Source: an uncultured bacterium
GTDB lineage: Bacteria; Eisenbacteria; RBG-16-71-46; CAIMUX01; WJJG01
Direction of reading: 5' to 3'
DNA: 54,470 bases
NCBI GenBank assembly: GCA_964388535.1
Contig: CAYMBA010000002.1
Span: forward strand, 1-54,470
The notes under the pieces are model-generated. The model was not told where the DNA came from, did not search any database, and saw nothing but the letters and a program-made list of their open reading frames with translations. Below, piece after piece: positions 29,543-46,625 of the stretch (positions within the stretch are counted from its first letter, which is position 1; every line of letters starts with the position of its first letter). The translations under genes were made by a program, and so were the position numbers.

Positions 29543-29568
29543 GATAACGGAAGCGCGCTTCCGTTATC
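29543..29568. repeat. Perfect 26-bp palindrome GATAACGGAAGCGCGCTTCCGTTATC (candidate parS-type centromere site)
   Basis: Self-complementary over all 26 nt, 58 nt downstream of the parB stop. Confidence 0.8.
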
Positions 29569-29580: not shown

Positions 29581-29604
29581 ATAGCGGAAGCGCGCTTCCC
29601 GTAT
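29581..29604. repeat. Imperfect copy of the palindrome (ATAGCGGAAGCGCGCTTCCCGTAT)
   Basis: Same GGAAGCGCGCTTCC centre, with the outer arms differing at 2 positions. It lies 12 nt from the perfect copy. Confidence 0.7.
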
Positions 29605-29625
29605 CTCTCCTGTTCTTGCGCGGGA

Positions 29626-30837
29626 CTAGTCCTGCCTCTCCAGCTCCTCCAGGCCCCGCAGCCGCGTCCGCACCAGTGCTACCAGTTCCTCCAGGAAACC
29701 CAGGACCACAGTCGCATCCTCTTGCACGACGATCTCATCCGCGACGGCGCCCAGCACCTCGACCCGCTGTTTCTCGCCGGCCCTGGAAAGCGCCCCTGAG
29801 AATCCCCTCAATCCGCGTAAGGCCGATCGCGCGTGGTCGCGCTCTTTGGGTTTCTTCCTTCGTCCCGCATCCGGCTCCGCCGGGCCTCGCATCGCCAGCG
29901 CGGCAAGCTCCTCCCCCGTCAGACTCTCCTCAACGGCGGCCTCGATGAGCGCAGTCCATCGCTCCTCCGGCTCGGCCAGGACGGCCTGCAGCACGCGATC
30001 CGATAGGTTGTAGCGATCAGCGACCTCCAACAGCTCGGTCGGCAGGCGCAAGACGCCCAGGATCTGCCGCATCCGGCGCGGTGTCAGCTGCATCACCGGC
30101 TCGATCTCCCGCCAGATACCTCGAGGTAGCCGCTGTCTCCCCGGTAAATCAATCGCCTGCCGGAAGTACTCGTACGGGTCCTCCGTGGAGGGGTCGGGCT
30201 CGAAGCCCATCTTTTTCAGCAGGAGGGCTGCAATCTCGCGCGCCTGCGCCACGGCCGTCGGCGGCTGCGCGTGGCGGTTCTCAACAATCTGCCGTTCTAC
30301 GCTTGCCGCCTGAACGGCTTCCACGCGCAACAGCGGCTCCTCCTTCGCGCCGTCAATCACCGCCTTAAGGCAAGCCCCCCAATAGCGGCGCTCACCTGTC
30401 TCGATCTTGAAGAAGTAGCTGCCGTCTTCAGCCGTCATCCACGTGCCCGTGATGGGTTTGATCTGGCCATGCTCGTCGACGCTCTCCGCCATAGCCACCA
30501 ATTCGACCACGCGGTCCCGATGACCTTTGTCGTCCTCCGCCAGGCGTAACCACGCCGCCGCAGCCTCGTAGCAGTCCATTTCTCCTGCGAAGAATGGGCG
30601 CTGGATCTCAATGGGGATAATAGGTCTTGGCTGGAATCGGTCGGGGAGCATCTCGCTCGGCCGCACGCGCTCAATCAGCTCTCTAGGCGTCTCGGGATGC
30701 GCGATCCTCTCGGCCGCGGCTGGCGCCGCATCGGCTTCCGCCTGAATGACCTCCGCGCTGAGGTCCAGCTCGATGTCGTTCTCAAAGGCGTCGTGCAGCT
30801 CCCGGCTCACCCGCGCCCGCTTGCGCTTAGCGCTCAT
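29626..30837 (-). CDS. parB: ParB/Spo0J-family partition protein
   Basis: ParB-box-like LPDRFQPRP and the arginine patch GERRYWGA are present. It shares a 4-nt overlap with parA. Confidence 0.8.
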   Translation of the reverse strand: MSAKRKRARVSRELHDAFENDIELDLSAEVIQAEADAAPAAAERIAHPETPRELIERVRPSEMLPDRFQPRPIIPIEIQRPFFAGEMDCYEAAAAWLRLAEDDKGHRDRVVELVAMAESVDEHGQIKPITGTWMTAEDGSYFFKIETGERRYWGACLKAVIDGAKEEPLLRVEAVQAASVERQIVENRHAQPPTAVAQAREIAALLLKKMGFEPDPSTEDPYEYFRQAIDLPGRQRLPRGIWREIEPVMQLTPRRMRQILGVLRLPTELLEVADRYNLSDRVLQAVLAEPEERWTALIEAAVEESLTGEELAALAMRGPAEPDAGRRKKPKERDHARSALRGLRGFSGALSRAGEKQRVEVLGAVADEIVVQEDATVVLGFLEELVALVRTRLRGLEELERQD

Positions 30838-31709
30838 GCGCCACCTCCCCCGATCACCTCATTCGCCTGTGGGACGCGATTCGTGCGCCGCATGACCTCC
30901 TCCACTAGAGTCGCATACTCCTGCGTCGCACGGGTGCTCGACTCCAGACCGTCTGACCACGTCCTCGGAGGGCGAAACAGGAAGATGTCCAGGTGCGCCC
31001 CGTTAGCCTGCTGGACCGCCCGCGCCCGGTGGATCGGCGGGAACACCTTCTCGCCGTAGCGCTCCCTTAGGCCCTGCAGGATCCCGCGCGCGTCCTTGGC
31101 CGTCTCCTCATACATGGTAGGCAAGTAACCGATGATTTCAAGATCCGTGCGCCGGTAAGCCTTCAACGTTTGAATTATCGTCGTGTGTAGCGCGCCGAGA
31201 CCGCTCGCGCCCTGGTAGGACATCTCGATCGGGATGAGCACATGCGTAGCGGCCATGATGGCATTGGTGAGCAGCGCGCCGGCATGCGGCGGCGTGTCGA
31301 CGATGATGTAGGCGTAGTTGTCCCGGATCGGCTCGAGGGCGTTCGCCAACCGAAGGTCTGGCCCCGGCAGGCTTCGGATGCGGTGGGCCGCCTCCTTCTG
31401 TGCCCGGTTGTTGCCCGGCAAAAAGTGGAGGTTCGGGTGGTGCTTGGCCCGGCGCAGCAGCCGCTGGGGCGAGGGGGGCACTTCTTCCACCAACAGGGCC
31501 GCCAGGGAATCCCCTGGCTCGGCGGTGTGGCTCCCGTAGGCGATGCCCATCAGCGCGTTCATCTGGGGATCCAGGTCCACAAGTAGCACGCGCCCCGCCT
31601 CTGCGCGCTGGTGACGCAGCTTCAAGGCCAGACCCGCGGCCAAGTTCACCGCCGTGGTGGATTTCCCCACGCCGCCCTTCTCATTGGCGATCGCAATGAC
31701 GATGGTCAT
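30834..31709 (-). CDS. parA: ParA/Soj-family partition ATPase
   Basis: Deviant Walker A IAIANEKGGVGKSTTAVNLA and Walker B YIIVDTPP. Confidence 0.9.
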   Translation of the reverse strand: MTIVIAIANEKGGVGKSTTAVNLAAGLALKLRHQRAEAGRVLLVDLDPQMNALMGIAYGSHTAEPGDSLAALLVEEVPPSPQRLLRRAKHHPNLHFLPGNNRAQKEAAHRIRSLPGPDLRLANALEPIRDNYAYIIVDTPPHAGALLTNAIMAATHVLIPIEMSYQGASGLGALHTTIIQTLKAYRRTDLEIIGYLPTMYEETAKDARGILQGLRERYGEKVFPPIHRARAVQQANGAHLDIFLFRPPRTWSDGLESSTRATQEYATLVEEVMRRTNRVPQANEVIGGGGA

Positions 31710-32176: not shown

Positions 32177-33082
32177 ATGGCTAAGCGCAAACTCCAACGA
32201 CGTCTCTTGCTGAAGGAGCTGGGATTCCTCGAGGAGCCCTTCACGATCTCCGCCGACCCGCGATTCCTGTACCTTTCCACCCAGCACGGCGAGGTGCTGG
32301 AGCGGACCAGGGATGTCGTTGAGGACTTCCGCGGGCTTGCCGTGGTTGAAGGTGGCTATGGGGTAGGGAAGAGCTCGCTCGCCCTGCGTCTGGAGTCGAT
32401 CTATCGCGCGCGGCCCGACGAGTACCGCGTGGTGTTTGTGCACACGGCGAGCTATGAATCCGAGTTCGCCGGCCTGCAGGATCTCTGTCACTCACTTGGC
32501 CTGCCCCGGCGGAGGGGCTTAACCAAGCAATGGCGCGAATTTGAGAACTTCCTAGTCGATGAGCACAAGCAAGGACGCAATGTCTGCATCATCCTGGACG
32601 ACGCCCAGCTCATGGACCAGGACGCGCTGAGGATTGTCCACCATATCTATAACTTTGACCGAGGGGGGCGCAAGCTCGCCCAGCTGGTCTTATTCGGGCA
32701 GCCGGAATTGACCTACATCTTTGCCATGAATCCCGAGATTCGCAGTCGCGTCGACTCCTGGTTTCGTCTCAATCCTCTCTCCCTCGAGGACACCCTTCAG
32801 CTCATCCGTTTTCGCTGTACCGTTGCGGGCCGCGACGAGCCCCTTTTCACACAAAGCGCTTTTCTCGAGGTCTTCGAGGCCACGGGCGGTGTTCCTCGCG
32901 AGATCGTCAGCGTTTGCGCCAGAGTGATCGAGGAGCTGGGGCATCAGGGCAAAAAGACTGCCGACATCGAGGTCACCAAAGCGGCCATTGAGCTGCACCA
33001 AGCATGGCACAGCGAACGAGCTGAACTCCATGCAGAGGAAGCTTCCGAGGAGCAGGGAGTACAAACGGAGGCGGCCGAATGA
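32177..33082 (+). CDS. AAA+ ATPase of the ExeA/TniB/AAA_22 type
   Basis: Walker A is VVEGGYGVGKSSLALRL and Walker B is VCIILDDAQLMD. Size and layout are typical of ExeA-like ATPases. Confidence 0.7.
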   Translation: MAKRKLQRRLLLKELGFLEEPFTISADPRFLYLSTQHGEVLERTRDVVEDFRGLAVVEGGYGVGKSSLALRLESIYRARPDEYRVVFVHTASYESEFAGLQDLCHSLGLPRRRGLTKQWREFENFLVDEHKQGRNVCIILDDAQLMDQDALRIVHHIYNFDRGGRKLAQLVLFGQPELTYIFAMNPEIRSRVDSWFRLNPLSLEDTLQLIRFRCTVAGRDEPLFTQSAFLEVFEATGGVPREIVSVCARVIEELGHQGKKTADIEVTKAAIELHQAWHSERAELHAEEASEEQGVQTEAAE

Positions 33083-33181
33083 TCGCCGCGTTTCCCGGGC
33101 CGCGAAACCGTTGGTTTTGGCGGGCCGCGTAATTGCGGCGTTGCCCGGCCCTTCCAACCGTTGTGGTTAAGGGCCCGTTGA

Positions 33182-33565
33182 TTGTATCGCTTGACCGAAG
33201 CAGGAGAACGCCGGAAGGCGCGTATGCCCGACAAGGAACCCACCTATCCATGGCTCCGCTTACTGGAGCTCGAACTCAAGCAGGAGCCCCGGCCCGTCAA
33301 ACGCAGACGCCCGGGAAGACCCAAGAACGCGTTCCCGCGCAAGCGCGTGCGCTCGGCGTTGACCGAGGACGAGCAGGCCGCGCTCGACGAACTGGTCGAG
33401 CTCTTCTCGGAGCGACTGGGGCGGACCATACATCGTGGCCACCTGATCGCCTTCATGACCTTCAGGCTCAGGCAGCAATTGCAGCGCGGCCAGGAAATCG
33501 TTATACCAGAGGAGATTGACTCATTCGTGGCGCTGGCAAAGTACCTCGATTCCCATTCCCGCTAG
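33182..33565 (+). CDS. Small basic protein with a ribbon-helix-helix-like C-terminal half
   Basis: A basic tract RRRPGRPKNAFPRKRVRSALT is followed by EDEQAALDELVELFSERLG and IHRGHLIAFMTFRL, a strand-helix-helix pattern. The real start may be ATG 33224. Confidence 0.45.
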   Translation: MYRLTEAGERRKARMPDKEPTYPWLRLLELELKQEPRPVKRRRPGRPKNAFPRKRVRSALTEDEQAALDELVELFSERLGRTIHRGHLIAFMTFRLRQQLQRGQEIVIPEEIDSFVALAKYLDSHSR

Positions 33566-33696: not shown

Positions 33697-34542
33697 TTGG
33701 CACCTGATAGCGTCCACCATCCCGTTCGCGAAAGCACGCTCGTCTTCCGAGGCAAGGAGATCTCCACCGCCGAGCTGAACAGTGGCTTTGGCTATGTCTC
33801 CCTGAACGCGCTGTGCGACGCGTTCGGCATTCAACGCAAGGCGCAGCGTCGCCGCCTACGGCGACAGGGCGGCTACTTTGACCCTTACACGGCCACGGTC
33901 CTCATGACCACCGCCGGCGGTCCGCAGCCCACGCTCTGCCTCAGGGCCGACGCCGTCCCGTTGTTCTTGGCCGGCGTTCAGCTCACACAGGTCGTCGACC
34001 CGGAATCACGCGAGCTACTTGAGGCTTTCCTGCAGGAAGCCCACATCGTGCTCAGCGAACACTTCGGCCTGAGTGAGCGCGGTGAAATCCAATTCCATCG
34101 CGAGGCGATGGCCAGGATGGTCCTGGAGCAGGAGGAATTCGAGGCGCAGCTCTCAAAAAAAGTCGATGAGGAAATCGCCCGACTGCGCCAGGAGCACGAA
34201 GCCAAGGTGCAGCAGATCCGAGAGGTGTTTGCCGGATTGAGGGAGCAGGTCAGGCGAATCGAGGCCGTTGCCGGCCCCAAGGCGCGTCTCACACCGGAGC
34301 AACTGGGCGCCCTGCGCCGCACGGTGGCGACACTCGGCAAGCTCCTGCAGGAGCGGGGCGTCCTCAAGCCATACCCCGGCATCTACGCGGACATTATGGA
34401 GCTGACCGGGGTCAGTCGTTCCGAGGATATCCGCCAGGAGGATCTTCCTGACGTTCTCGAATTCCTCGACGGCCAGATCGCGGCCCTGCGCAAGATCAAG
34501 CCCCGCAAGGGGCCCGACCAGGGCGCGTCGTCTGGCCAGTAG
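33697..34542 (+). CDS. Antirepressor-like (P22 AR N-terminal-like) protein with a coiled-coil C-terminus
   Basis: FRGKEISTAELNSGFGYVSLNALCDAFGIQRKAQRRRL resembles the phage antirepressor N-terminal domain (from memory). TTG start, with GGAGG 8 nt upstream. Confidence 0.45.
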   Translation: MAPDSVHHPVRESTLVFRGKEISTAELNSGFGYVSLNALCDAFGIQRKAQRRRLRRQGGYFDPYTATVLMTTAGGPQPTLCLRADAVPLFLAGVQLTQVVDPESRELLEAFLQEAHIVLSEHFGLSERGEIQFHREAMARMVLEQEEFEAQLSKKVDEEIARLRQEHEAKVQQIREVFAGLREQVRRIEAVAGPKARLTPEQLGALRRTVATLGKLLQERGVLKPYPGIYADIMELTGVSRSEDIRQEDLPDVLEFLDGQIAALRKIKPRKGPDQGASSGQ

Positions 34543-34764
34543 ATATGAAGGGGTTGTTGCCAATGACTTGGCAGAGTGGATTCACATGATCAGTTTCGAT
34601 TAGGGTTTTCGTCCGCCCCCTGACCAGTGCCAGAGATCATGCTGGGAACGTGCTGGGGGCGTAAAAGCGAAACTCCCCTCGGGCGGCCAACCTTCAGGGG
34701 AGCGCGCATTAGGCGTTTCGCTTGACTGCCAAGATCATATTCGATTCTCTGGCGCCTGTCAAGC

Positions 34765-37173
34765 ATGTCTCGCCGCGCGCGCTCGCCCGGGCGGATAGAT
34801 AGAAAGTCTGGGAGCACGCGGTTGATGACGCCGAACGGGCGCAACTCACCACAACAAGATCCTTCCTCCAATCACGCCTCGATCGCGACGGGTGGCGAGC
34901 TCTCTCTCGCCCCCTTCACGGAACGCGCCCGCGAGGCGGTCATCAAGGGCTACAAGATCATCAAGGTCCCGGACTACTTCCTCAACGAGTGGCTGCCGCT
35001 CCTGGGGCCCAGCCGCTGGCTTGCGGTCCTCGCCTTTCGGCAGGTCGCGTTCGTCCATAAGTGCAAGGAGAAGACGGGCCTGCGTCCGACGCGCACAACC
35101 TTCCGTGAGCTCGCGATATGGTCCGGGCAGTCCCGCCCCCAGATGCACAAACTCCTCAAGAAGCCCGGTCTGCTGACCTGGTTTGTCGAGCCCGCGGAGG
35201 GGGAGTTCGGCACGCATCCCCGGAGCCGATCGGAGCGCCGCACGTATCTTGTCCGCGTCGAGATACCGCTCACGCCGAGCGACCAGGCCAAACTGGAGTC
35301 GTTCCTGCAGGCCAATCGTCCCTCCGACGACGAGGGGTGGTTGGAGGTGCTGCACCGTGCGCTCTCCGCCAAGCATAGCGAGCCGCCCTCAAAGGACCCC
35401 CTTCCAGAACGCCCGAAGACGATCCAGCAACTGGTTCGTGAGCTGCGCGACCCTTCGCAGCCGCTTCCGGAGGATATCGACTGGGCGTGCGATGAGCTGC
35501 TGGAGCGGTGGCAGACGCAGAATTTCGGACAGGTGACGCATTACTTCGTCCGGAAATGGCTTCCAGATCTCACGCCAGGCCTGGGTTGCCTGCTCATCTG
35601 GTCCCGCCGGCACGCCAACAAGCAACCGGACATGCAAATCGGCCGTCTCCACAACATCGGGTGGCAGGACCTGGCCAGGGCCGTGGGAGTCACCACCAAG
35701 AGCGTCCGCCGCTGGTTCTCGGACCATGAAACGTATCCTCACACACGCACTTTCATGGAGCCTATCCCTGTCCACGTGGGCGCCGGCGTAGTGGATCGCA
35801 TCGCTCCCGATGGGCTAGACGTCGCTGGCGAGCACGTCGCTGTCACGGCCAGCACCGTCATCAAGCACCCGATCCGCTCGGGCGACTTCATCCGTCTGAC
35901 CGCCGAGCGCAGGGACGGATCCCTCCAGGCGCTTTCCCTTGAGCTCGCCAATGAGGCCGACCTAGACCCGGGCTTCTCCCCGGCGCACATGACCTTTGAT
36001 GTCAAACTGACGGAGCCCATCCACCCGGATGACCAGGCTCTCTATCGATCGCTGCTCGATAGCCAGACATCTTTGGCAGACAAGGATCAGATGCTTCTTC
36101 CCAATGTTCAGTTGCCCCGCTCATCGAAGCAATCTTCCTCCAGCGAGGGAGGGGCAAAAGTAGACAAGCCTGGGACAATAATGGAAAGGGAGAGCCCAAA
36201 TCCCGCCGATCATATCCCAGAAGTAGACATGGCGGGCGCAGAAGTAGACAACCCTCAGCCAGTAGTGAATTCTGGTAGGCCAGAACTAGACATGCGTGGC
36301 CCAGAGATAGACAACGAGCCGACAGGGGTAGACGCATTAAGAGATATATCAAGAGTCTCTAAGACTCCTCCAAGAAACGATACAGAAGAACAACTACCAG
36401 ATTCGCCAAATTTGGCTGCAAACAGTACGTCTCAGGAGATGCCTGCCCCAGATGTAGTTGTTGCCTCACACAACCTTTGGGACATCAGGCACATTCTGAC
36501 TGAGGCGGCGATCCCAAAGCGCGACAAGGATGCTATCTTGGCTAGCTGGACAAGGCGCTGGCAGCCTTTCGTGGCCTGGCTGCTCTGGTCGATAGCAACA
36601 AAGAGCATCGATGCGCCAGTGCTCCATGCAGTGAGTCGTTTCAAGAAAGGCGAAACCCCACCACAAGAGTTTCTCGGGCTGGCAACTATTCCGCCATCGA
36701 CGCTTGCTGCCTGGCTCAGACCCGATGGAATTGACTGGCCCTATGAATTTGACGACGCGATCCGTAAGCTGCGCAGCAATGGTGCCTACCGGAAGCTGCG
36801 AAACCTTGGATCGATACCGGATCACGAGACTCGAGAGGACGACTTGGGGTGGCGGGCCGAACCGTCTAGGGAAGGGCAGAGGGATTCCGGCGACGCGCGA
36901 GTAGAGATGGTTGTGGATGATCGAGGGATGACCGCGGAAGCTGCTTGGCGCGCAGCGAAAGCGCAGCTGCAGACCGAGGTCCCGCGCGCGACATACGACA
37001 CATGGGTCCGGGACATTCAGTTCGTGGGTTTTCGGGACGATGTTTTTGAACTGGGGGTCCAGAACTCCTACGCGCGAGAGTGGCTTGAGGATCGTCTGGC
37101 TAGCACGATCACGCGAGTACTGGCGGGAGTCGTTGGACGCAGAGTGGGGGTGAGATTCGTTGTTCACGAGTGA
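34765..37173 (+). CDS. Replication-initiator-like protein with wHTH-like N-terminal regions, a heptad-repeat linker and a DnaA-N-terminal-like C-terminal domain
   Basis: The C-terminus ATYDTWVRDIQFVGFRDDVFELGVQNSYAREWLEDRLASTITRVLAGVVGRRVGVRFVV matches the DnaA_N pattern (tW...l.....l.l.vpn.f...w.......i). The start is uncertain (e.g. ATG 34825). Confidence 0.65.
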   Translation: MSRRARSPGRIDRKSGSTRLMTPNGRNSPQQDPSSNHASIATGGELSLAPFTERAREAVIKGYKIIKVPDYFLNEWLPLLGPSRWLAVLAFRQVAFVHKCKEKTGLRPTRTTFRELAIWSGQSRPQMHKLLKKPGLLTWFVEPAEGEFGTHPRSRSERRTYLVRVEIPLTPSDQAKLESFLQANRPSDDEGWLEVLHRALSAKHSEPPSKDPLPERPKTIQQLVRELRDPSQPLPEDIDWACDELLERWQTQNFGQVTHYFVRKWLPDLTPGLGCLLIWSRRHANKQPDMQIGRLHNIGWQDLARAVGVTTKSVRRWFSDHETYPHTRTFMEPIPVHVGAGVVDRIAPDGLDVAGEHVAVTASTVIKHPIRSGDFIRLTAERRDGSLQALSLELANEADLDPGFSPAHMTFDVKLTEPIHPDDQALYRSLLDSQTSLADKDQMLLPNVQLPRSSKQSSSSEGGAKVDKPGTIMERESPNPADHIPEVDMAGAEVDNPQPVVNSGRPELDMRGPEIDNEPTGVDALRDISRVSKTPPRNDTEEQLPDSPNLAANSTSQEMPAPDVVVASHNLWDIRHILTEAAIPKRDKDAILASWTRRWQPFVAWLLWSIATKSIDAPVLHAVSRFKKGETPPQEFLGLATIPPSTLAAWLRPDGIDWPYEFDDAIRKLRSNGAYRKLRNLGSIPDHETREDDLGWRAEPSREGQRDSGDARVEMVVDDRGMTAEAAWRAAKAQLQTEVPRATYDTWVRDIQFVGFRDDVFELGVQNSYAREWLEDRLASTITRVLAGVVGRRVGVRFVVHE
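36155..36334 (+). repeat. Iteron-like direct repeats, consensus CAGAAGTAGACA, phased at 21 bp
   Basis: Good copies start at 36155 (CAAAAGTAGACA), 36218 and 36239 (CAGAAGTAGACA), 36281 (CAGAACTAGACA), 36302 (CAGAGATAGACA) and 36323 (CAGGGGTAGACG). A degenerate copy lies at 36260. All spacings are multiples of 21. Confidence 0.7.
36335..36430. other. AT-rich tract directly following the repeats (candidate DNA-unwinding element)
   Basis: CATTAAGAGATATATCAAGAGTCTCTAAGACTCCTCCAAGAAACGATACAGAAGAACAACTACCAGATTCGCCAAATTTGG is conspicuously A+T-rich relative to the rest of the gene. Confidence 0.45.
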
Positions 37174-37488
37174 CGACAAGGACAAATCAATGGGCAGGGA
37201 TAGCGGTTGGAGTGGCGAGGCCAGCACGATAATACTGTCCCCAAGAATGGGTGAGCGCGCGACGGGCGCAAGTGGAGAATGTCCGAATTAGCCGAAGACG
37301 CAGGGCGAGGATTAGAAACTGGCGAATCCGATGATCGCATAATTCGCGGTTCAGAAGGTCTCTGCAACGCATAATAAAGTGCGCGTGCGGATGAAAACCG
37401 GCGATAACTGGCGCAGGGCGCTCAACAAGGAAGGGCACATGATCAAAAAAGAGTTAGCCAGCGATAGTCCTGTAGTTCTCATCTACTC

Positions 37489-38751
37489 ATGGATTTGACA
37501 CATCGTCTGCATGATCTTGTTGATCGCCTTCGGCTCTTGCGGAGGAATATTGCATTATTGGGTGTTGATTACTTCAGCATTAAGGCTAGGTATTTCAGGG
37601 CCGCTGGCTATATTTGCTTAGCGAGGCTTGCCATCGCGATAATCGCAGTCGCTACTTTGCTGACCATACTGGTCCTAAAGGGTTGCGCGAGTCTTTACAC
37701 CGCACCTTGGGCAGGATTTGGAGCTTATGAAGCCGAGAACGGTGAGATTATTCCAGCCAAGACCCTATGGGACTGGCTAGATCTTCTCATTGTTCCGCTC
37801 GCAATAGCTATTATTGCATTTCTATTCCGAAGATCGGAGGCCGCGAGTTCACGAGCCCATGCAACCGACAGAAGCAGGGAAGAGGCTCTAGGAGGATATC
37901 TTGATCGCCTGCAAGATCTCCTTCTTGATACGGATTATGGCAATGAAGAGGCAATGCAGGACGCATCGAGGTTGGCAACGGCACGGACCATCGCGTTGTT
38001 GCGCCAGCTTGATGCGCAGCGCAAGGCTATCGTCCTCAGATTCCTCTATGAGGCCGGGCTGATCAGCGGAAATCCACCTTTCGTAAGCCTACAAAGGGCA
38101 GACCTGTCCAGGATTCGTTTCGATGGGAGCTCGCTGACTGGAGCCAATCTAGGCGGTGCATTGCTCGACGACGCTAGCTTGGAGTGGACATGGTTATCGA
38201 AGGCAAACCTTTCAGGGGCATCTATGGTTCGCGCAACAGTGAGTTCCGCCTACCTGATGGATGCTAACCTTGAGTATGCTCTGATGGACCGGGCGGACTT
38301 CTATTCCGCAAACTTAACCGGAGCGAGCTTGATTAAGGCGAAGGCTCCGGGCGCGAATTTCGCTCGAGCGCACCTAGAAAAAGCGGCTATGCGAGACATC
38401 TATCTCACTAGAGCGAATTTGAGAGGCGCGAGGCTCAAAGGCGCTTACCTGCTCGGCGCGAGGATGTCTAGGTCGAATCTCCGGAATGCGGATCTCAGAG
38501 AGGCGAACTTAGCCGAGGCCAACCTGATGTATGCTGACCTAACTGGCGCGGATCTAACCGGCGCGGACCTTACGAACGCGATTGTATCGAGAAGGCAACT
38601 AAGGAAGGCTAAAGCCGCCAGCGGCGCGAAACTTGATGGCATACGAGACAGACCTGGCCCTCCACACATTCCAGCTGGAGACCAGATAGAGCCGTCACAA
38701 CCTCTCCCTTTTGGAAAGCAATCGGAGGATGATGAAACTGCTATGCCTTGA
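37489..38751 (+). CDS. Membrane-anchored pentapeptide-repeat protein
   Basis: Hydrophobic N-terminal segments are followed by ~200 aa of A(D/N)LxG-type repeats (ANLSGASMVRATVSSAYLMDANLEYALMDRADFYSANLTGASL...ADLTGADLTGADLTNA). Confidence 0.85.
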   Translation: MDLTHRLHDLVDRLRLLRRNIALLGVDYFSIKARYFRAAGYICLARLAIAIIAVATLLTILVLKGCASLYTAPWAGFGAYEAENGEIIPAKTLWDWLDLLIVPLAIAIIAFLFRRSEAASSRAHATDRSREEALGGYLDRLQDLLLDTDYGNEEAMQDASRLATARTIALLRQLDAQRKAIVLRFLYEAGLISGNPPFVSLQRADLSRIRFDGSSLTGANLGGALLDDASLEWTWLSKANLSGASMVRATVSSAYLMDANLEYALMDRADFYSANLTGASLIKAKAPGANFARAHLEKAAMRDIYLTRANLRGARLKGAYLLGARMSRSNLRNADLREANLAEANLMYADLTGADLTGADLTNAIVSRRQLRKAKAASGAKLDGIRDRPGPPHIPAGDQIEPSQPLPFGKQSEDDETAMP

Positions 38752-38819
38752 TCGCTGGCTACCGATGAGTTGGAAAGTCACGACCCAATCCGAGATTCAT
38801 CGCGAATATAGTGAATAGC

Positions 38820-38852
38820 AGCACACGCCCTGCCCACCGCAGGGTGTGTGCT
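38820..38852. other. 13-bp GC-rich hairpin after the pentapeptide gene
   Basis: AGCACACGCCCTG (38820-38832) pairs with CAGGGTGTGTGCT (38840-38852), with one G-T pair and a 7-nt loop. No T-run follows. Confidence 0.5.
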
Positions 38853-38904
38853 TAGGCGGAGGGATGTTGGTGTTTATTCAGTTGCGACAGGACCTGGATC
38901 AGTC

Positions 38905-40149
38905 CTACGCTTGAAGCTTTGGCAGCAGCGCCTTGATCTCCTCATCAGGCGCGATTGGGTAGCGATTACCACCGCGCATGATGTGGGTCAAATCCTCTCC
39001 GAGCTGCAATTGCATCAGGTGGTAACGCGCCCACTGTCGGGTGCTCATCCCCCGACGCTTCGCGTCATCTAGCTTCCAGGACCACATAATGTACTTAAAG
39101 GCGACCTTGTCTGGATCTGCATGGCGATCTGCAGTGCGCTCGGTCAGGATGTACCAGACTGCTACCAGCAGCTTGCGAGCGATGGCGACCGCGGCTTTGG
39201 TTGAACCGATGCGCCGCTCCAATCGCTCGTATTGAGCTTTCCAGTAGGGGTGAGTGTCAGCGGCACGCCAGGCGGCTTCCACCAGGATCCAGCGCAGCTC
39301 TTTGCGACCTTGCTTGGTGATGCGGCCGGTCCGGTGCTTCATCCCACTATCGTGGATAGAAGCGCCCAGGCCGGCGTAGCCGACGAGTTTCTTAGGATGG
39401 GAGAAGCGAGAGATATCGCCAATGGCAGCAAGAACTGTCAAGGTGACGATCAAGCCGAAGCCGGGCAGTTGGAGCAGAAAAGGTACCTGATCAGCCCAGG
39501 GCTCTGAGGTACTGAGCCGATAGAGTTCCTTCTCGATCTCTTCGAGCAGCTCATCGACGTGATCGATGGTGGCTAGATCATGGCGAACACGCATGCGCTG
39601 AGTGGGCGAGATATCGAGTTTATGCCACCACTCCCGATGCTTCTTGGTGAAGATCTTGCCTTGAGGAGACTTGAGGTTGTGCCGGTGGAGCAGACTGTGC
39701 AGGTGATTGCGAGCCCGAGTGCTCATCTGGACCAGGCGACGACGGTGTGCCATGAGTGAGCGGAGTTCACGCACTTCAACGGGAGGAACCCAGACTTCAG
39801 GAATGAGATCGGCGGCGAGGAGATGAGCCAACCGGAGGACGTCGTGCCGATCTGTCTTGACACGGGCTTCATCGATCCACTTGACCTTTGGGGGATGAGC
39901 AACGATGGTTCGATCAACCAGGGGAGCGACCTGGTCATAGATCTCCCAGGCATTGGTGGTGGCTTCGAGGACAACGTTGTCAGTGGAAAGCAGGTTTGTC
40001 TTAGCCCAGGCAGGCCATTTTTGCAGAGATATTCGGCGTGGATTGAGGATTATCTCCTGCTGCCGGTTGACGCCTCCAACGACCAGATAGTGCTTGTGGA
40101 GGTCGAGAGCCAGGAAGCGCTTTGATGTTGATTTTGGAGGGGAATTCAT
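38905..40149 (-). CDS. IS110-family (DEDD) transposase
   Basis: LALDLHKHYLVV, VVLEATTNAW and KTDRHDVLRLAHLL form the DEDD N-domain. The C-terminal Transposase_20-like region is LLQLPGFGLIVTLTVLAAIGDISRF...LVGYAGL..HDSG. Confidence 0.9.
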   Translation of the reverse strand: MNSPPKSTSKRFLALDLHKHYLVVGGVNRQQEIILNPRRISLQKWPAWAKTNLLSTDNVVLEATTNAWEIYDQVAPLVDRTIVAHPPKVKWIDEARVKTDRHDVLRLAHLLAADLIPEVWVPPVEVRELRSLMAHRRRLVQMSTRARNHLHSLLHRHNLKSPQGKIFTKKHREWWHKLDISPTQRMRVRHDLATIDHVDELLEEIEKELYRLSTSEPWADQVPFLLQLPGFGLIVTLTVLAAIGDISRFSHPKKLVGYAGLGASIHDSGMKHRTGRITKQGRKELRWILVEAAWRAADTHPYWKAQYERLERRIGSTKAAVAIARKLLVAVWYILTERTADRHADPDKVAFKYIMWSWKLDDAKRRGMSTRQWARYHLMQLQLGEDLTHIMRGGNRYPIAPDEEIKALLPKLQA

Positions 40150-40513
40150 CGTACACTCCTTAGTGAGAAGGTCAATGTCACTGACCGGATCGTAAGGGGC
40201 GCGGATTTTTAGGCAGGGAGATACACAAACCGATGCGGGCTCGGCCTGATGGCCGTCCCAGACGAGTTATCCGACGGGTGGACCAAATAACAACACGGGC
40301 TTGCGTAAGCATCCCATAGGCAGCTTCGGTCCGCCCTGACGCTCCGTGCCCCCGGTGCGTTCCCGTCTCCAGTCGAGAAGAGGATAGCACCGGCCGCGCC
40401 CCTTCACTACATACTAATAACACCTCGCTGATGCGGACGGGGTCAGCGAGGCATTTCGACGAGCTTGCAGCTTCCCTGGGTTCCGCCATAATGATTGAGC
40501 GTCCGAGCCGCCG
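40150..40513 (-). ncRNA. Candidate IS110 5' non-coding (bridge-RNA-type) transcript region
   Basis: Long non-coding flank upstream of the transposase, with local stems CTCGCTGA/TCAGCGAG (40424-40431/40443-40450) and CCGCATA/TATGCGG (40509-40535). The only ORF here (40178-40516) looks spurious. Confidence 0.35.
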
Positions 40514-40544
40514 CATAGCTCGAGGGCGTTATGCGGAGTAGCCT

Positions 40545-41423
40545 ATGACACGAGAAATTGGACCCCAATATGATTTAGATGACCCATTCAAGGCGGCCGC
40601 TAGGCTCCATCAGTCCAACTATCGGGCGAAGGTTCTTGATGTCGAGTATTCGGATTATGGCAACCGATTGACTGATGCTGATGGTCGCGCTTTGCTGAAT
40701 TACTACGACGACCTTGGTGTTCGTGAGGCTTTGCGGCGGAGGTATCCGCAGTATTCCAAGCGGCGTGACGCTGACCTGCTTAGAAGCGAACACATACCTC
40801 TCAACGTGCTGGCTCCACTTGCAGGACGACCAGACTTGGCCCGGATGATTATCAAAAGTGCTTTCGAACAGAAACTGGAGGGACCGTTCGAGCTGAGGTT
40901 CGAATGGGCACCAGAGCCGAAACACAATTACCTCGACGATATGACCTCCATTGATGCTTATTTACAGGGTATTGGCAACGATGGCAAACTCGTTGGCATT
41001 GGTGTTGAGGTGAAATACACAGAGCGCGGGTACAGAATCGGAAAATCAGAGGCCGAGCGTGTCCATGATCCGAGTTCCACCTACTGGACCGTTACACATG
41101 AGGCTGGCTTATTTGCGGAAAGTGAGCTTGGCGACCTGGCAGAGGACGACCTGCGGCAAATCTGGAGAAACCACCTACTTGGATTGGCAATGGTTGGTCG
41201 CGGTGATATCGCAAGGTTCGTGTCAGTGACGCTGTATCCATCCGGAAACATCCATTTCACCCACGCTCTGGAGAAGTATCAGGGCTACCTGAAGGATGGC
41301 GCGCGGAGTAGCGTTTGCGGTTGCACATTCGAGCGTTTCATCGAATGTATTCGCGGTGACCATGAGATCGAGAAATGGAAGCAGTTCTTGACAGAGAGAT
41401 ATCTGATTGAGCAGCCCGCATAA
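40545..41423 (+). CDS. PD-(D/E)XK-like (restriction-endonuclease-fold) protein, cassette ORF
   Basis: TSIDAYLQG...LVGIGVEVKYTE fits D...(E/D)xK. GGAG lies 8 nt before the ATG, and the stop TAA lies inside the following attC-like inverse core. Confidence 0.55.
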   Translation: MTREIGPQYDLDDPFKAAARLHQSNYRAKVLDVEYSDYGNRLTDADGRALLNYYDDLGVREALRRRYPQYSKRRDADLLRSEHIPLNVLAPLAGRPDLARMIIKSAFEQKLEGPFELRFEWAPEPKHNYLDDMTSIDAYLQGIGNDGKLVGIGVEVKYTERGYRIGKSEAERVHDPSSTYWTVTHEAGLFAESELGDLAEDDLRQIWRNHLLGLAMVGRGDIARFVSVTLYPSGNIHFTHALEKYQGYLKDGARSSVCGCTFERFIECIRGDHEIEKWKQFLTERYLIEQPA

Positions 41424-41475
41424 CAACAGCATGCAGCGGACGGCTATACGCCGCCGCTGATGCTGAGCGTTAGCC
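41418..41475 (+). other. attC-like recombination site 1 (58 bp)
   Basis: GCATAAC (41418-41424) ... GTTAGCC (41469-41475). The arms pair as CAGCAT/ATGCTG, CAGCGG/CCGCTG and CGGC/GCCG around the loop TATAC. Unpaired G41433 and A41440 occur only on the inverse-core arm. Confidence 0.65.
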
Positions 41476-41636
41476 GCCATGATGCCTCGCCCGGAGGATA
41501 GTTTCTGATAATCCGACCTGGAGATCCGTCTGTCGATTGGCAGGCACTTCAACCTCAAACCGACCATAAGCGGGTCCTGATTGTTGAAGGGCTCAATCCC
41601 AGATCCGTTGGGTCCATCTCAGAGGAGATTCTGTCG

Positions 41637-42164
41637 GTGGAGGTTGCAGGGCAGCTGGCACTTCGCCGAACTCAGCTTCTGGAATCACCTGAGCTCGGGG
41701 ACAGAAGTTCAGTAACCGTTGTCTTTCGAGATACCTTCCTTCCACATAGCCATTTCGATATAACCGACGCCTACAATATCTCAGTCGCCTATAAAGGCAC
41801 CGCAGTGGCAGGTAAGAAACAAGTGGCTGGCGGGAAAGTCATAGCAATAAGGGCTGACCTCCGAGCTCCAGTTTTTGATGCCCACTCGATAGAAATGGTT
41901 CTTCGCCTTCTTCCTCTTACGGATGATTATGTTGCGGAACTACCTGTTTTTCACGCGGCCCGCGGAGAGCGAATGATGGTGACCTTGCAGGCGATCGGCC
42001 GCGAAATCGTGACGGATTCCACGGGCTCGTTAGATGCGTGGAAAATTCGAACCGAATGGGATGGAGTGACGCAGTATTATTGGAGAGGCGTTGAAGATCA
42101 ACAACTAGTCAGGCAATCTTCAAGGCTGAAAGCAGGAGTGTATCTTGAGTTCGCGCGGGGATGA
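41637..42164 (+). CDS. Hypothetical protein (175 aa), cassette ORF, GTG start
   Basis: GAGGAG lies 9 nt upstream of GTG 41637. The translation is beta-rich and protein-like. No motif. Confidence 0.5.
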   Translation: MEVAGQLALRRTQLLESPELGDRSSVTVVFRDTFLPHSHFDITDAYNISVAYKGTAVAGKKQVAGGKVIAIRADLRAPVFDAHSIEMVLRLLPLTDDYVAELPVFHAARGERMMVTLQAIGREIVTDSTGSLDAWKIRTEWDGVTQYYWRGVEDQQLVRQSSRLKAGVYLEFARG

Positions 42165-42180
42165 TTGTTACCCAAGCAAG

Positions 42181-42252
42181 TGCTAACAAGGCGTTGGTTC
42201 GGACGCAAACTACGCTGCGCGTCGTTTGCGCCGTACAGCTTGGTCGTTAGGC
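42181..42252 (+). other. attC-like site 2 (72 bp, less regular)
   Basis: TGCTAAC (42181-42187) ... GTTAGGC (42246-42252). The central stem CGG(A)CGCAAAC/GTTTGCGCCG has the same bulged A context as site 1, but about 12 nt on each arm do not pair. Confidence 0.4.
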
Positions 42253-42328
42253 CGCCAAACAATCACACAGCGGATGTCTTCTGAGGTTAACGCGAATCTG
42301 ACATCTACGCTATTGCCAGGAGGGAACT

Positions 42329-42898
42329 ATGACCGATATAGCCGAAGAGGAAAAGCGAGACCCATATATTGACCGCTTTCGCAATAGCCCTGTCTCCGAA
42401 GTTACAAGAGAAGTTGTTGACCAGGCTTTCAGGGCCTACAAGACTGCGCGGTGTCTGAGCCTAATAGCGTTCTTTGTCGGTATCGGCCTGATTGCTGCCG
42501 CTGTGGTCTTTAGCTTTCTGCGCAGCGATAGCGAATTGCTCAGCCTAATCCTTGGCGGACTGGGTACAGTGAATCTCGTCGCTCTGTTGCTATATCGCCC
42601 CATTGAACGAATACAACTTGGTGTGGACAAGCTTGTTCAGTCACAAATCGTCTGGTTAACCTTTCAAGCCCAATACGACTTCGTGGCGCGTGCTTTGGCA
42701 ACAATGTCAAAAATGCGATTTGACGATAAACATCGTGGCTGGGACAGGGAAGAGGGATTAAGACACGAGTTGAAGCTGGCAAAGCACTTGGGGGAGTTTG
42801 CCTCTGAACTCATTGGGGATTTGGCTGGGCAGGTGTCCGGTGCTTCCGCAACGAAGACAGGTGGTGAGAACCAAGGAAAGACGGCATCACAGGAGTAG
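42329..42898 (+). CDS. Two-TM membrane protein (189 aa), cassette ORF
   Basis: AGGAGGGA RBS. TM helices are LSLIAFFVGIGLIAAAVVFSFL and LLSLILGGLGTVNLVALLLY. Confidence 0.65.
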   Translation: MTDIAEEEKRDPYIDRFRNSPVSEVTREVVDQAFRAYKTARCLSLIAFFVGIGLIAAAVVFSFLRSDSELLSLILGGLGTVNLVALLLYRPIERIQLGVDKLVQSQIVWLTFQAQYDFVARALATMSKMRFDDKHRGWDREEGLRHELKLAKHLGEFASELIGDLAGQVSGASATKTGGENQGKTASQE

Positions 42899-42902
42899 GG
42901 CG

Positions 42903-43032
42903 GCCTAACACTGCATGAAGCCGACCGCGCCTATCGGCGCTCGAAAACAGCGGCGCTCTTGCATTTGTAGTTGCTAGGTAGTGAGGCAGGTTTTGCATGG
43001 GTCGGCGCAGCGGCTTATGCTTGCCGTTAGGG
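42903..43032 (+). other. attC-like site 3 (130 bp)
   Basis: GCCTAAC (42903-42909, a perfect RYYYAAC) ... GTTAGGG (43026-43032). The cores pair over 6 bp. Then come GCAT/ATGC, a bulged G42917, AAGCCG/CGGCTT and GCGCC/GGCGC, enclosing a ~70-nt variable centre. Confidence 0.6.
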
Positions 43033-43041
43033 GCCATTAAT

Positions 43042-43809: not shown

Positions 43810-43836
43810 CACGCGCTGGAGCAACTGTCTTAGATG

Positions 43837-45050
<1,214 letters not shown>

Positions 45051-45091
45051 CTTAGCTCGATGCCGTAAGGCAGAAAAGCAAGGGTATAGAT

Positions 45092-46027: not shown

Positions 46028-46266
46028 AGGGATGTGCCATGCATAATGTTACTCCTTCTGGTCACATCGATTCGCCTCGCTGCCCAAAGTGTGGTTCTCC
46101 AATGACAAAGAAGCGTCCTTACAGGGGAGGCACTGCCTCATTTTGGGAGATATATCCAGTCTCATCAACAGGATCAGCCAGCGCGTACATGTATCCAGAG
46201 CAGGAAATCTACTACTGTACCAATGAGGACTGTGGACAATCCTTGCTAGGACCTCGGCGAGACTAA
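46024..46266 (+). CDS. Small zinc-ribbon protein (80 aa)
   Basis: CPKCGS ... CTNEDCG (CxxC...CxxxC). It shares an ATGA overlap with the preceding ORF. Confidence 0.5.
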   Translation: MKGCAMHNVTPSGHIDSPRCPKCGSPMTKKRPYRGGTASFWEIYPVSSTGSASAYMYPEQEIYYCTNEDCGQSLLGPRRD

Positions 46267-46569: not shown

Positions 46570-46625
46570 GTGTCTGAGCAGGACGGCCTACAGACAACGA
46601 TGTCCTAGCGGCCGGGCCGCCTCTG

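What the first reader, a model, noticed from the sequence alone, without database searches (positions are those of the whole stretch)
36155..36430. 21-bp-phased iteron-like repeats plus an AT-rich tract inside the rep-like gene (lambda-O-style intragenic origin?)
Six good copies and one degenerate copy of CAGAAGTAGACA occur at 36155, 36218, 36239, (36260), 36281, 36302 and 36323. Every spacing is a multiple of 21 bp, i.e. two helical turns.

The repeats are in frame and give heptads xVDxxxx. The encoded residue varies (V/L/I = GTA/CTA/ATA) while the DNA core TAGAC is kept. These A-ending codons look atypical for this G+C-rich gene. That argues for constraint at the DNA level rather than the protein level.

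The array is followed directly by the most A+T-rich ~95 bp of the gene. Iterons followed by an AT-rich unwinding element inside the initiator gene is the known layout of phage lambda ori within gene O.
Basis: partly seen in the sequence, partly recalled or inferred. Interest (0 to 1): 0.72.

Follow-up and report, generated by a model that had tools for sequence, protein, structure and literature searches.

The report
Replication origin written inside initiator gene
A plasmid-like element from an uncultured Anaerolineae bacterium very probably carries its replication origin (nine 21-bp protein-binding repeats followed by an easily melted A+T-rich stretch) inside the coding sequence of its own initiator gene, and relatives show that selection acts on the DNA there rather than on the encoded peptide.

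Summary
Window 36151-36339 holds nine contiguous in-frame 21-bp units, six strong and three degenerate, with consensus GGnnCArAArTAGACA. The next 60 bp (36337-36396) are the least stable 60-mer of the whole 54-kb window.

The array lies in an 802-aa gene whose product has a folded N-terminal double winged-helix-like module, an OB-like barrel, a disordered linker (aa 437-569) and a C-terminal DnaA domain I. The repeats and the AT tract sit exactly in the linker.

In eight homologues (39-57% identity) the peptide here is poorly conserved but codons are frozen. Synonymous codon identity is 0.66-0.88 against a 0.3-0.5 background. Wobble bases are among the best conserved positions, and rare A-ending codons are kept.

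More distant subfamilies keep the position, the 21-bp period and the flanking GCGTTAAG plus unstable tract, but have different cores. One is GGACARAAYTTAAC, with TTA used for 7 of 7 Leu in a 75%-GC gene. Another is rGTTCCAC.

A separate conserved parS-like palindrome accounts for the ParAB partition system, and GC skew switches sign at the array.

Best reading: an iteron-type oriV inside the rep gene. This layout is known from lambda O and RepA_N plasmids, but here it occurs in a new, large, unannotated initiator family.

The parts
34765..37173 (+). Rep-like initiator gene. The longest ORF is 802 aa. The likely true start is the ATG at 34825, giving 782 aa.
   Evidence: ORF list and translation. 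Pfam DnaA_N at aa 726-786, E 1.1e-11. The database entry P0001 is 782 aa, and homologues align from M21 onward.
34909..35754 (+). N-terminal folded module (aa 49-330): two related winged-helix-like units, each starting with YF..WLP.L. It is the presumed iteron-binding domain.
   Evidence: AF2 pLDDT is 80-95 in the full-length model and 86 for the module modelled alone. There is a short internal similarity between aa 70-86 and 259-275, E 0.001. Weak HTH hits at aa 301-328. Foldseek gives only weak winged-helix and RepA_N N-terminal-domain matches.
35755..36003 (+). OB-like beta-barrel (aa 331-413; Pfam DUF5666, below the family cutoff).
   Evidence: Pfam DUF5666 E 1.7e-5. Beta strands in the AF2 model. 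Foldseek matches to CusF and cold-shock-domain folds.
36073..36471 (+). Segment encoding the predicted disordered linker (aa 437-569). It contains the repeat array and the A+T-rich tract.
   Evidence: AF2 pLDDT is about 30 over aa 437-569. Amino-acid identity among homologues is 0.2-0.5 here, whereas synonymous codon identity is 0.66-0.88.
36151..36339 (+). Iteron-like array of nine contiguous direct 21-bp units. Strong units start at 36151, 36214, 36235, 36277, 36298 and 36319. Degenerate units start at 36172, 36193 and 36256. Consensus: GGn nCA rAA rTA GAC Ann nnn.
   Evidence: In the position matrix the wobble A of codon 2 carries 1.70 bits while that codon's first base carries 0.22 bits. 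The wobble C of GAC carries 1.41 bits.
36334..36343 (+). Junction element GC(A/G)TTAAGAG at the 3' edge of the last unit. It is conserved at the DNA level in all three subfamilies, where the peptide reads A-L-R or A-L-S.
   Evidence: Within the genes, TTAAG occurs almost only at this place. Arg is encoded as AGA and Ser as AGT, so TTAAG is kept across the amino-acid change.
36337..36396 (+). A+T-rich, least stable tract, the candidate DNA unwinding element. It carries roughly 12-nt-phased YAAGA motifs at 36339, 36351, 36361, 36372 and 36386.
   Evidence: It is the least stable 60-mer of the gene: dG -70.8 against a mean of -90.1 (sd 5.1). It is also the least stable of the whole window. The same spot is the least stable of the whole locus in 8 of 11 homologous loci. 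AAGA sits at +2, +14, +25, (+36) and +49 from TTAAG and is conserved in subfamily 1.
36385..36397 (+). Conserved GAAGAACAACTAC element at the distal end of the A+T-rich tract.
   Evidence: The codon alignment shows GAA GAA CAA CTA in 7 of 9 homologues.
36472..36828 (+). Central helical domain (aa 570-688), role unknown.
   Evidence: AF2 pLDDT 78-93, all helical.
36901..37170 (+). C-terminal DnaA-domain-I-like domain (aa 713-802), the presumed helicase-recruitment module.
   Evidence: Pfam DnaA_N. PDB profile hits to DnaA domain I: 4tps E 7e-12, 8btg, 2e0g. Foldseek match to 4tps with target TM-score 0.87-0.89 and rmsd 0.9 A.

Best explanation
The 36151-36397 segment is the vegetative replication origin (oriV) of this plasmid-like element, embedded in the linker-coding part of its own initiator gene.

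Shown:
- The region is under strong nucleotide-level selection that overrides codon preference and peptide conservation.
- It consists of nine direct repeats phased at two helical turns.
- It abuts the most easily melted DNA of the whole 54-kb window.
- The position, the period and the flanking unstable tract are conserved across three subfamilies, while the repeat core changes with the protein.

Inferred mechanism:
- Rep monomers bind the 21-bp iterons through the N-terminal double winged-helix-like module. Each unit offers two ACA-containing half-sites 10 bp apart.
- Phased binding on one face of the helix bends or wraps the DNA and opens the adjacent tract at 36337-36396. Its roughly 12-nt-phased YAAGA repeats may be held as single strands.
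- The C-terminal DnaA-domain-I-like module then recruits a DnaB-type helicase, either the host's or the element's own DnaB_C-like protein (9435-10586). The conserved upstream AAA_22 ATPase may assist.
- Because the origin lies inside rep, transcription of rep passes through it, and the DNA-binding domain is complete just as the ribosome reaches the iteron-coding codons. Both would favour action in cis.
For: 1. DNA-level constraint:
- Codon identity among same-residue pairs is 0.66-0.88 for aa 460-548, against 0.3-0.5 elsewhere, although amino-acid identity there is only 0.23-0.49.
- GTA is used for 30 of 57 Val in the region against 36 of 405 outside. ACA is 38 of 48 against 63 of 332. TTA is 19 of 46 against 11 of 672. 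AGA is 23 of 50 against 29 of 527.
- In the low-GC homologue P0003, GAC is 8 of 11 in the region against 10 of 48 outside.
- The residue at unit codon 2 varies (T/P/A/S) but the codon is nCA in 59 of 64 units.

2. Co-variation between repeats and protein:
- P0009 has AAAGGCGAC cores.
- Subfamily 2 has GGACARAAYTTAAC, with TTA used for 7 of 7 Leu in the array against 1 of 76 outside in a 75%-GC gene.
- P0013 has rGTTCCAC.
- All three keep the 21-bp period at the same place and end with GCGTTAAG.

3. The unwinding tract: it is the least stable 60-mer in 10 of 12 genes, in the whole 54-kb window and in 8 of 11 whole loci.

4. GC skew:
- The cumulative G-C minimum of the window is at 36141.
- The 5' part of the gene has negative skew and the 3' part positive skew in the window and in 10 of 11 loci. 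Left flanks are negative and right flanks positive in most of the loci that have both.

5. The protein suits an initiator: a folded HTH-type N-terminal module, a disordered linker exactly over the array and DnaA domain I at the C-terminus.

6. Genomic context: a conserved ParB-like/ParA, AAA_22, ~113-aa ORF and Rep module, plus type IV secretion, relaxase-like, DnaB-like and primase genes in the window.

7. The partition system has its own conserved palindromic site downstream of the parB-like gene.

8. The motif occurs nowhere else in the window or in the loci.

9. Family-wide pattern: 78 of 169 relatives carry a periodic array right after the N-terminal module.

10. Precedent: ori-lambda lies within gene O, and oriV lies within rep in pAD1, pLS32, pSK1, pSK41 and repC (PMC5043065, PMC3155836).
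Against: - There is no experimental or read-depth evidence of initiation here.
- GC skew is confounded by gene orientation and by the purine-rich array itself. The region 46-54 kb is slightly negative (-0.02), and only 54 kb of a contig of at least 68 kb was seen.
- The N-terminal module has no significant structural or sequence match to any characterised initiator. That Rep, rather than the conserved AAA_22 or ~113-aa proteins, binds the repeats is therefore an assumption.
- The pooled codon statistics are not phylogenetically independent.
- The tract is only moderately A+T-rich (65% over 60 bp).
- No DnaA boxes or IHF-like sites were found.
- Several homologous loci are flanked by housekeeping genes, so the replicon type is unclear.
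Confidence: 0.72

Rival explanations
1. The repeats are functional DNA sites, but not the origin. They could be Rep-binding or other protein-binding sites used for copy-number control or handcuffing, for autoregulation or roadblocking of rep transcription, for incompatibility, or as an extra centromere.
For: The DNA-level constraint and the helical phasing fit any array of protein-binding sites equally well. Iteron plasmids commonly carry control iterons outside the origin. Centromeres are often tandem repeats.
Against: - The array always abuts the least stable DNA of the locus, with its own conserved phased motifs. A pure control or centromere site does not need that.
- A separate, conserved parS-like palindrome sits next to the parB-like gene in the window and in four loci.
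- No second iteron cluster that could serve as the real origin exists in the window or the loci.
- The skew minimum coincides with the array.
Confidence: 0.14
2. The signal is selected at the mRNA or translation level. Either a conserved cluster of rare A-ending codons in the linker slows ribosomes, for example for co-translational folding or cis-action, or an RNA element is present. No DNA-binding role would be involved.
For: Rare codons (TTA, AGA, ATA, GTA, ACA) are strongly enriched exactly between two folded domains.
Against: - The constraint is position-specific within a 21-nt unit. Some wobble positions are fixed as A, one as C, and others stay G/C or free. That is not generic rare-codon or A-richness.
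- First codon positions vary while wobble bases stay fixed.
- The cores differ by subfamily but keep a two-helical-turn period.
- There is no Rfam match, and the predicted RNA folding is not unusual (z = -0.99).
- Translational pausing could still be a by-product.
Confidence: 0.06
3. It is a protein-level heptad repeat (xVDxxxx) in the linker, and the DNA similarity merely reflects recent duplication of the units.
For: The Asp of each strong unit is invariant in nine proteins (D467, D488, D495, D516, D523), and the peptide repeat is visible.
Against: - The homologues are 39-57% identical, so their synonymous sites should be randomised. Yet unit codons are conserved between genomes, column by column.
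- GAC is preferred over GAT even in a 47%-GC gene.
- Residues encoded by nCA vary freely.
- The segment is predicted to be disordered.
- The number and register of the units are conserved, which argues against ongoing duplication.
Confidence: 0.03

Closest known systems
Bacteriophage lambda ori within gene O
   Same: - The origin lies inside the initiator gene.
- Several initiator-binding repeats are followed directly by an A+T-rich tract that melts (four 19-bp iterons plus about 40 bp of A+T; PMC5043065).
- Transcription of the initiator gene passes through the origin.
- From my own knowledge, the lambda iterons also lie in the part of O between its DNA-binding and P-binding halves.
   Different: - Lambda iterons are near-perfect inverted repeats that bind O dimers (PMC5043065). 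Here the units are direct and non-palindromic, nine units of 21 bp.
- The protein is unrelated to O (no Pfam or PHROG match).
- It carries a DnaA domain I rather than relying on a lambda-P-type partner.
RepA_N-family plasmids of Firmicutes (pAD1, pSK1, pSK41, pLS32, pSX267), which have oriV iterons inside the rep gene
   Same: - oriV lies inside the initiator gene and has recognisable iterons (PMC3155836, Discussion).
- From my own knowledge, these repeats lie in the poorly conserved central region between a DNA-binding N-terminal domain and a host-interaction C-terminal domain, and they differ between plasmids.
- Foldseek gave weak matches to RepA_N N-terminal domains 4pt7, 4pql and 5kbj (probability 0.33-0.60, target TM-score about 0.48).
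   Different: - There is no Pfam RepA_N hit, and the structural match is not significant (E about 0.6).
- The architecture differs: a double winged-helix-like module, an OB barrel, a helical domain and DnaA domain I.
- The host phylum is Chloroflexota.
Classical iteron plasmids (P1, F, R6K, RK2, pSC101, pPS10) with two-winged-helix Rep proteins
   Same: [quoted passage not shown]
- That element has its own repeated motifs, which Rep binds as single-stranded DNA (13-mers; PMC4081077). This is comparable to the roughly 12-nt-phased YAAGA motifs here.
- The initiator appears to hold two tandem winged-helix-like units.
   Different: - Those origins are intergenic and need DnaA boxes. None is found here.
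- No Rep_3 or RepA/pi/RepE-type homology was detected.
- Here DnaA domain I is fused to the initiator itself.
repABC plasmids, with oriV inside repC
   Same: The origin lies within the initiator coding sequence. An A+T-rich stretch is essential there, as shown by silent mutations (PMC3155836).
   Different: repC has no iterons (PMC3155836), and the protein family is unrelated.

Membership tests
Iteron-type theta origin (oriV) | Multiple direct repeats of about 17-22 bp, phased with the DNA helical repeat | tested here: met
   Nine contiguous 21-bp direct units at 36151-36339, all on one strand.
Iteron-type theta origin (oriV) | An adjacent A+T-rich, easily melted unwinding element | tested here: met
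   36337-36396 is the least stable 60-mer of the gene, of the window and of 8 of 11 homologous loci (nearest-neighbour dG). This is a calculation, not a melting assay.
Iteron-type theta origin (oriV) | Repeat sequence specific to, and co-varying with, the cognate initiator | tested here: met
   Three subfamilies plus P0009 have different cores at the same position and with the same period.
Iteron-type theta origin (oriV) | The initiator binds the repeats, and the fragment replicates autonomously when Rep is supplied | not testable with these tools
   This needs EMSA or footprinting and a replication assay.
Iteron-type theta origin (oriV) | DnaA boxes in or beside the origin (typical but not universal) | tested here: not met
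   TTWTNCACA with up to 1 mismatch gives 35 hits against 29.7 expected, and none lies in 36100-36450.
Lambda-type ori (Phage_rep_O initiator) | Initiator homologous to lambda O | tested here: not met
   No Pfam, NCBIfam or PHROG hit other than DnaA_N.
Lambda-type ori (Phage_rep_O initiator) | Iterons with internal dyad symmetry that bind initiator dimers | tested here: not met
   The unit consensus GGnnCArAArTAGACA has no dyad. The inverted-repeat search found none in the array.
Lambda-type ori (Phage_rep_O initiator) | Origin inside the initiator gene, with iterons followed by an A+T-rich tract | tested here: met
   This concerns layout only.
RepA_N plasmid initiators | RepA_N N-terminal domain (Pfam PF06970) | tested here: not met
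   There is no Pfam hit. Foldseek matches to 4pt7, 4pql and 5kbj are weak only (E 0.57-1.5, rmsd about 9 A).
DnaA-domain-I-containing proteins | K-homology-type DnaA N-terminal domain fold | tested here: met
   Pfam DnaA_N at 44.7 bits against a cutoff of 24.6. PDB 4tps E 7e-12. Foldseek target TM-score 0.87-0.89. Helicase binding itself was not tested.
ParABS centromere (as a rival identity for the array) | Repeats adjacent to the par operon and recognised by the ParB-like protein | tested here: not met
   The array lies 4.4 kb from parA, inside rep. A different, conserved 24-26-bp palindrome lies directly downstream of the parB-like gene in the window and in L007-L010.

The most novel reading that the evidence does not exclude
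The window is one example of a large and so far undescribed class of replicons. The class has 711 clusters at 50% identity and is seen here in Anaerolineae.

- In this class the origin would be systematically written into the disordered linker of the initiator as an in-frame array. Its unit length must satisfy both the codon phase and the helical phase. The basic periods seen are 7, 11, 15 and 18 aa, that is 21, 33, 45 and 54 bp.
- The plasmid initiator would have captured DnaA domain I, at either end of the protein, so that it recruits the replicative helicase directly and bypasses DnaA.
- Placing the iterons immediately after the DNA-binding domain, in rare codons, would tether the nascent initiator to its own template and enforce action in cis.
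Probability: 0.3. Interest if true: 0.75.

Novelty: new variant of a known kind. Interest (0 to 1): 0.6.

Why it matters
- Origin for an intractable group: plasmid replication in Chloroflexota, and in Anaerolineae in particular, is essentially uncharacterised, and these organisms lack genetic tools. This analysis defines a compact candidate minimal replicon, rep with its internal oriV (about 2.4 kb), that could seed shuttle vectors.
- Overlapping codes: it is an unusually clean natural case of protein-binding DNA sites and an unwinding element encoded on top of a protein linker. The comparative signature is textbook: wobble bases are more conserved than first codon positions, and TTA is kept in a 75%-GC gene.
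- A new initiator architecture: DnaA domain I is fused to a non-DnaA, winged-helix-type initiator, which suggests direct helicase recruitment.
- A practical detection rule: an in-frame, helically phased array in a disordered linker followed by the local stability minimum could locate origins in hundreds of related unannotated genes.

Tried and rejected
- RNA element: the Rfam scan of 34500-37600 at E <= 1 found nothing. The RNA fold of 36140-36440 is not unusual (z = -0.99).
- Internal promoter or terminator: there is no sigma-70-like site in 35800-36800, and the only terminator-like sites are on the minus strand at chance level.
- DnaA boxes: not enriched, and none lies at the array.
- Further copies of the motif, such as control iterons or operators upstream of rep or parA: none in the window beyond chance, and none in the homologous loci outside the arrays.
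- Tandem Repeats Finder did not report the array because the units are too divergent. The repeat finder did report it.
- Centromere reading: rejected as the primary explanation because a separate conserved parS-like palindrome exists.
- Homology of the N-terminal module to known initiators: Pfam, NCBIfam, PHROGs, a PDB profile search and Foldseek on a confident model gave nothing significant.
- PLSDB held only one partial relative, a permuted architecture on the Leptolinea sp. HRD-7 plasmid. It has no intragenic array.
- IMG/VR held no relatives.
- A second word-index protein search with the N-terminal alignment returned only three proteins. The exhaustive profile search was needed to see the size of the family.
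- DNA for P0014 (90-kb contig) could not be fetched.
- DNA for family members with periods of 11, 15 or 18 aa could not be obtained because the look-ups were exhausted. For those, the DNA-level test was done only at the peptide-periodicity level.
Full report
**Observation**

CANNNNTAGAC occurs nine times in the window against 2.55 expected. Six of these lie at 36155-36333 on the + strand, with spacings of 63, 21, 42, 21 and 21 bp.

Read in register, the array is nine contiguous 21-bp units spanning 36151-36339. Six are strong and three are degenerate, the latter starting at 36172, 36193 and 36256. The units are in frame within ORF 34765-37173 and read xxx(V/L/I)Dxx.

The A+T-rich tract is also real. 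The lowest-GC 100-bp windows of the gene are 36300-36449. The 60-mer 36337-36396 is the least stable 60-mer of the gene. It is also the least stable of the entire 54,470-bp window, rank 1 of 54,411.

**The gene and its setting**

The ORF encodes 802 aa, or probably 782 aa from the ATG at 34825. Its only curated domain is DnaA_N at aa 726-786. This is confirmed by PDB profile hits to DnaA domain I and by Foldseek (4tps, target TM-score 0.87-0.89).

AlphaFold, run on a 19-sequence alignment, gives these parts:
- a confident N-terminal region, aa 49-436, made of two winged-helix-like units followed by an OB-like barrel;
- a disordered segment, aa 437-569, with pLDDT about 30;
- a helical domain, aa 570-688;
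- the DnaA-domain-I fold, aa 713-802.

The repeats and the AT tract (aa 463-545) lie wholly inside the disordered linker.

The neighbouring genes suggest a conjugative plasmid-like element:
- a ParA gene and a ParB-like gene (30834-31709 and 29626-30837, minus strand);
- an AAA_22 ATPase;
- VirB4-like and coupling-protein-like ATPases;
- a Replic_Relax protein;
- a DnaB_C-like protein;
- a DnaG-like primase;
- IS110 transposases.

Relatives come from uncultured Anaerolineaceae.

**The decisive test: DNA or protein?**

Eight homologues of 39-57% identity were found. Their DNA was fetched and a codon alignment was built.

- Conservation profile: for residues 460-548, amino-acid identity is only 0.23-0.49. 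Codon identity among pairs that share a residue is 0.66-0.88, against 0.3-0.5 over the rest of the gene.
- Rare codons: A-ending codons are concentrated here in every homologue. GTA is 30 of 57 in the region against 36 of 405 outside. ACA is 38 of 48 against 63 of 332. ATA is 19 of 34 against 31 of 270. TTA is 19 of 46 against 11 of 672. AGA is 23 of 50 against 29 of 527. Third-position A is 0.35-0.53 against 0.10-0.21.
- Low-GC homologue: in the 47%-GC homologue, GAC is used for 8 of 11 Asp in the region against 10 of 48 outside.
- Position matrix: in the matrix of 64 units, the second codon has a nearly free first base (0.22 bits) and varying residues (T/P/A/S). Its wobble A is almost invariant (1.70 bits in the strong units). 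The wobble C of GAC carries 1.41 bits.

This is the reverse of protein-level constraint, and it is position-specific rather than a general A-richness. The pooled Fisher tests are not phylogenetically independent. At this divergence, however, synonymous sites should be randomised, and the pattern recurs gene by gene.

**Co-variation between repeats and protein**

- The most divergent close homologue, P0009, has AAAGGCGAC cores in place of AAGTAGAC.
- More distant homologues (30-42% identity) have other heptad peptides at the same place.
- In the two distant genes whose DNA was obtained, the unit is GGA CAR AAY TTA MCn. One of these genes is 75% GC, yet TTA encodes 7 of 7 Leu in the array and 1 of 76 outside.
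- A third subfamily (P0013) repeats rGT TCC ACn nine times.
- All three subfamilies keep the 21-bp period and end in GCG TTA AGn, where Arg (AGA) or Ser (AGT) preserves TTAAG.

So the position, the period and the junction element are conserved, while the core changes with the protein. That is the behaviour expected of iterons and their cognate initiator.

**The unwinding tract**

- In 10 of 12 genes, the least stable 60-mer of the gene begins at this TTAAG.
- In 8 of 11 loci it is the least stable spot of the whole locus, intergenic DNA included.
- In subfamily 1 the tract carries AAGA motifs at +2, +14, +25, (+36) and +49, followed by a conserved GAAGAACAACTAC.
- This resembles the repeated 13-mers of plasmid unwinding elements, which Rep proteins bind as single strands (PMC4081077).

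**Skew**

- The cumulative G-C curve of the window has its global minimum at 36141, 10 nt before the first unit.
- Within the gene, the 5' part has skew -0.08 and the part from the array onward has +0.11.
- The 5' part of the gene is negative and the 3' part positive in 10 of 11 homologous loci. Left flanks are negative and right flanks positive in most of the loci that have both. In several loci the cumulative minimum falls at or near the array.
- I treat this as supporting evidence only. Gene orientation and the purine-rich array contribute to the signal, and 46-54 kb is slightly negative.

**Rival explanations**

- Centromere: a centromere role is unlikely. A different 24-26-bp palindrome (ATAaCGGAAGCGCGCTTCCGTTAT) lies directly downstream of the parB-like gene in the window and in four homologous loci.
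- Control or operator array: this reading cannot be excluded. It does not explain the conserved unstable tract, and no other iteron cluster exists.
- RNA-level readings: these are weak. There is no Rfam match, folding is unremarkable, and no promoter is present.
- Purely peptide-level repeat: the codon data contradict this.

**How it most likely works (inferred)**

1. Rep binds the direct repeats through its duplicated winged-helix-like module. Each unit offers two ACA-type half-sites 10 bp apart, in subfamilies 1 and 2 alike.
2. Binding on one helical face distorts the DNA and opens 36337-36396.
3. The DnaA-domain-I module recruits a DnaB-type helicase.

None of these steps was demonstrated here.

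**Comparison with known systems**

- The layout matches ori-lambda inside gene O. Lambda iterons, however, are inverted repeats for O dimers, and the proteins are unrelated (PMC5043065).
- It also matches the intragenic, iteron-bearing origins of pAD1, pLS32, pSK1 and pSK41 (PMC3155836). There is no RepA_N domain here, and Foldseek similarity to RepA_N N-terminal domains is not significant.
- Direct, helically phased repeats next to an unwinding element are the hallmark of classical iteron plasmids. Those origins are intergenic and use DnaA boxes, which are absent here.

**Family**

- An exhaustive profile search with the N-terminal module finds 711 cluster representatives at E <= 1e-3 and 350 at E <= 1e-10. 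No source name beyond 'hypothetical protein' appeared among those shown with names.
- DnaA_N sits at either the N- or the C-terminus in different members.
- 78 of 169 members examined have a periodic peptide array just after the module, above the maximum of a local-composition null. The periods are only 7, 11, 14, 15, 18, 21 and 22 aa.
- The intragenic array therefore appears to be a family trait. For these members the DNA-level test is still to be done.

**Verdict**

This is a known kind of arrangement, an origin inside the initiator gene. It is found here in a new initiator family and phylum, with unusually clear comparative evidence.

Noticed in passing
window 29543-29568, 29581-29605 and 28301-28316; L007:394-421; L008:5158-5179, 5330-5355 and 5370-5391; L009:2587-2610 and 2783-2810; L010:3639-3662: A conserved 24-26-bp palindrome (GATAACGGAAGCGCGCTTCCGTTATC) lies directly downstream of the ParB-like gene in the window and in four homologous loci. 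It is a likely parS-type centromere for the ParA/ParB-like pair. A perfect DnaA-box sequence, TTATCCACA (28317-28325), abuts the third, weaker copy.
   Followed up: partly
window 33073-33163: Three direct repeats with 25-bp spacing (GGCCGCGnAAnnG...) span the stop of the AAA_22 gene and the start of the 128-aa ORF. Their function is unknown. They may be a regulatory or binding site of the replication module.
   Followed up: no
window 32177-33082 (AAA_22) and 33133-33519; loci L007-L010, L015 and L016: The gene order ParB-like, ParA (both minus strand), then AAA_22 ATPase, a ~110-130-aa ORF and Rep (plus strand) is conserved across all subfamilies. The AAA_22 protein resembles TniB/MuB-type and PEP-CTERM-associated ATPases and could be a helicase loader or remodeller for this origin. 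In the window, a P22_AR_N antirepressor-like gene (33697-34542) is inserted before rep.
   Followed up: partly
L018 (Leptolinea sp. HRD-7 plasmid AP024711.1), 4721-6831 and 4432-4475: A closed 212-kb Anaerolineaceae plasmid carries an AAA_22 homologue (38% identity), a 108-aa ORF and a 295-aa protein with a permuted architecture. That protein has DnaA_N at the N-terminus and a single YFFEHWLPLLG winged-helix unit at the C-terminus, with no intragenic array. A 27-31%-GC intergenic region with a 22-bp tandem repeat lies upstream and may be its origin.
   Followed up: partly
Rep gene aa 55-70 and 93-103 (window about 34927-34974 and 35041-35073): There is a second, smaller rise in synonymous codon identity (0.63-0.70 against a background of about 0.45) in the most conserved part of the N-terminal module. 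It might reflect codon bias in a highly conserved segment or another embedded element.
   Followed up: no
L015 6541-15875; L016 12746-14110; L010 642-3001: Homologous replication modules are flanked by housekeeping genes: an arginine biosynthesis operon, SHMT, DHDPS and Fur. Some members may therefore sit on chromids or large secondary replicons, or be integrated, rather than on small plasmids.
   Followed up: no
window 1-9000 and 36000-46000 compared with 9000-36000 and 46000-54470: Base composition is mosaic, with GC of 0.47-0.58 against 0.62-0.70. The lower-GC block to the right of the array holds two IS110-family transposases (38905-40149 and 43837-44796), a pentapeptide-repeat protein, a PD-(D/E)XK nuclease and an Abi_C protein. 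These are probably accessory or defence cargo acquired later. The GC drop begins inside rep at the array.
   Followed up: no
window 611-5380 (minus strand): A 1589-aa protein combines DEAD/Helicase_C domains with three C-terminal S1 RNA-binding domains, an unusual architecture for a plasmid-borne gene.
   Followed up: no
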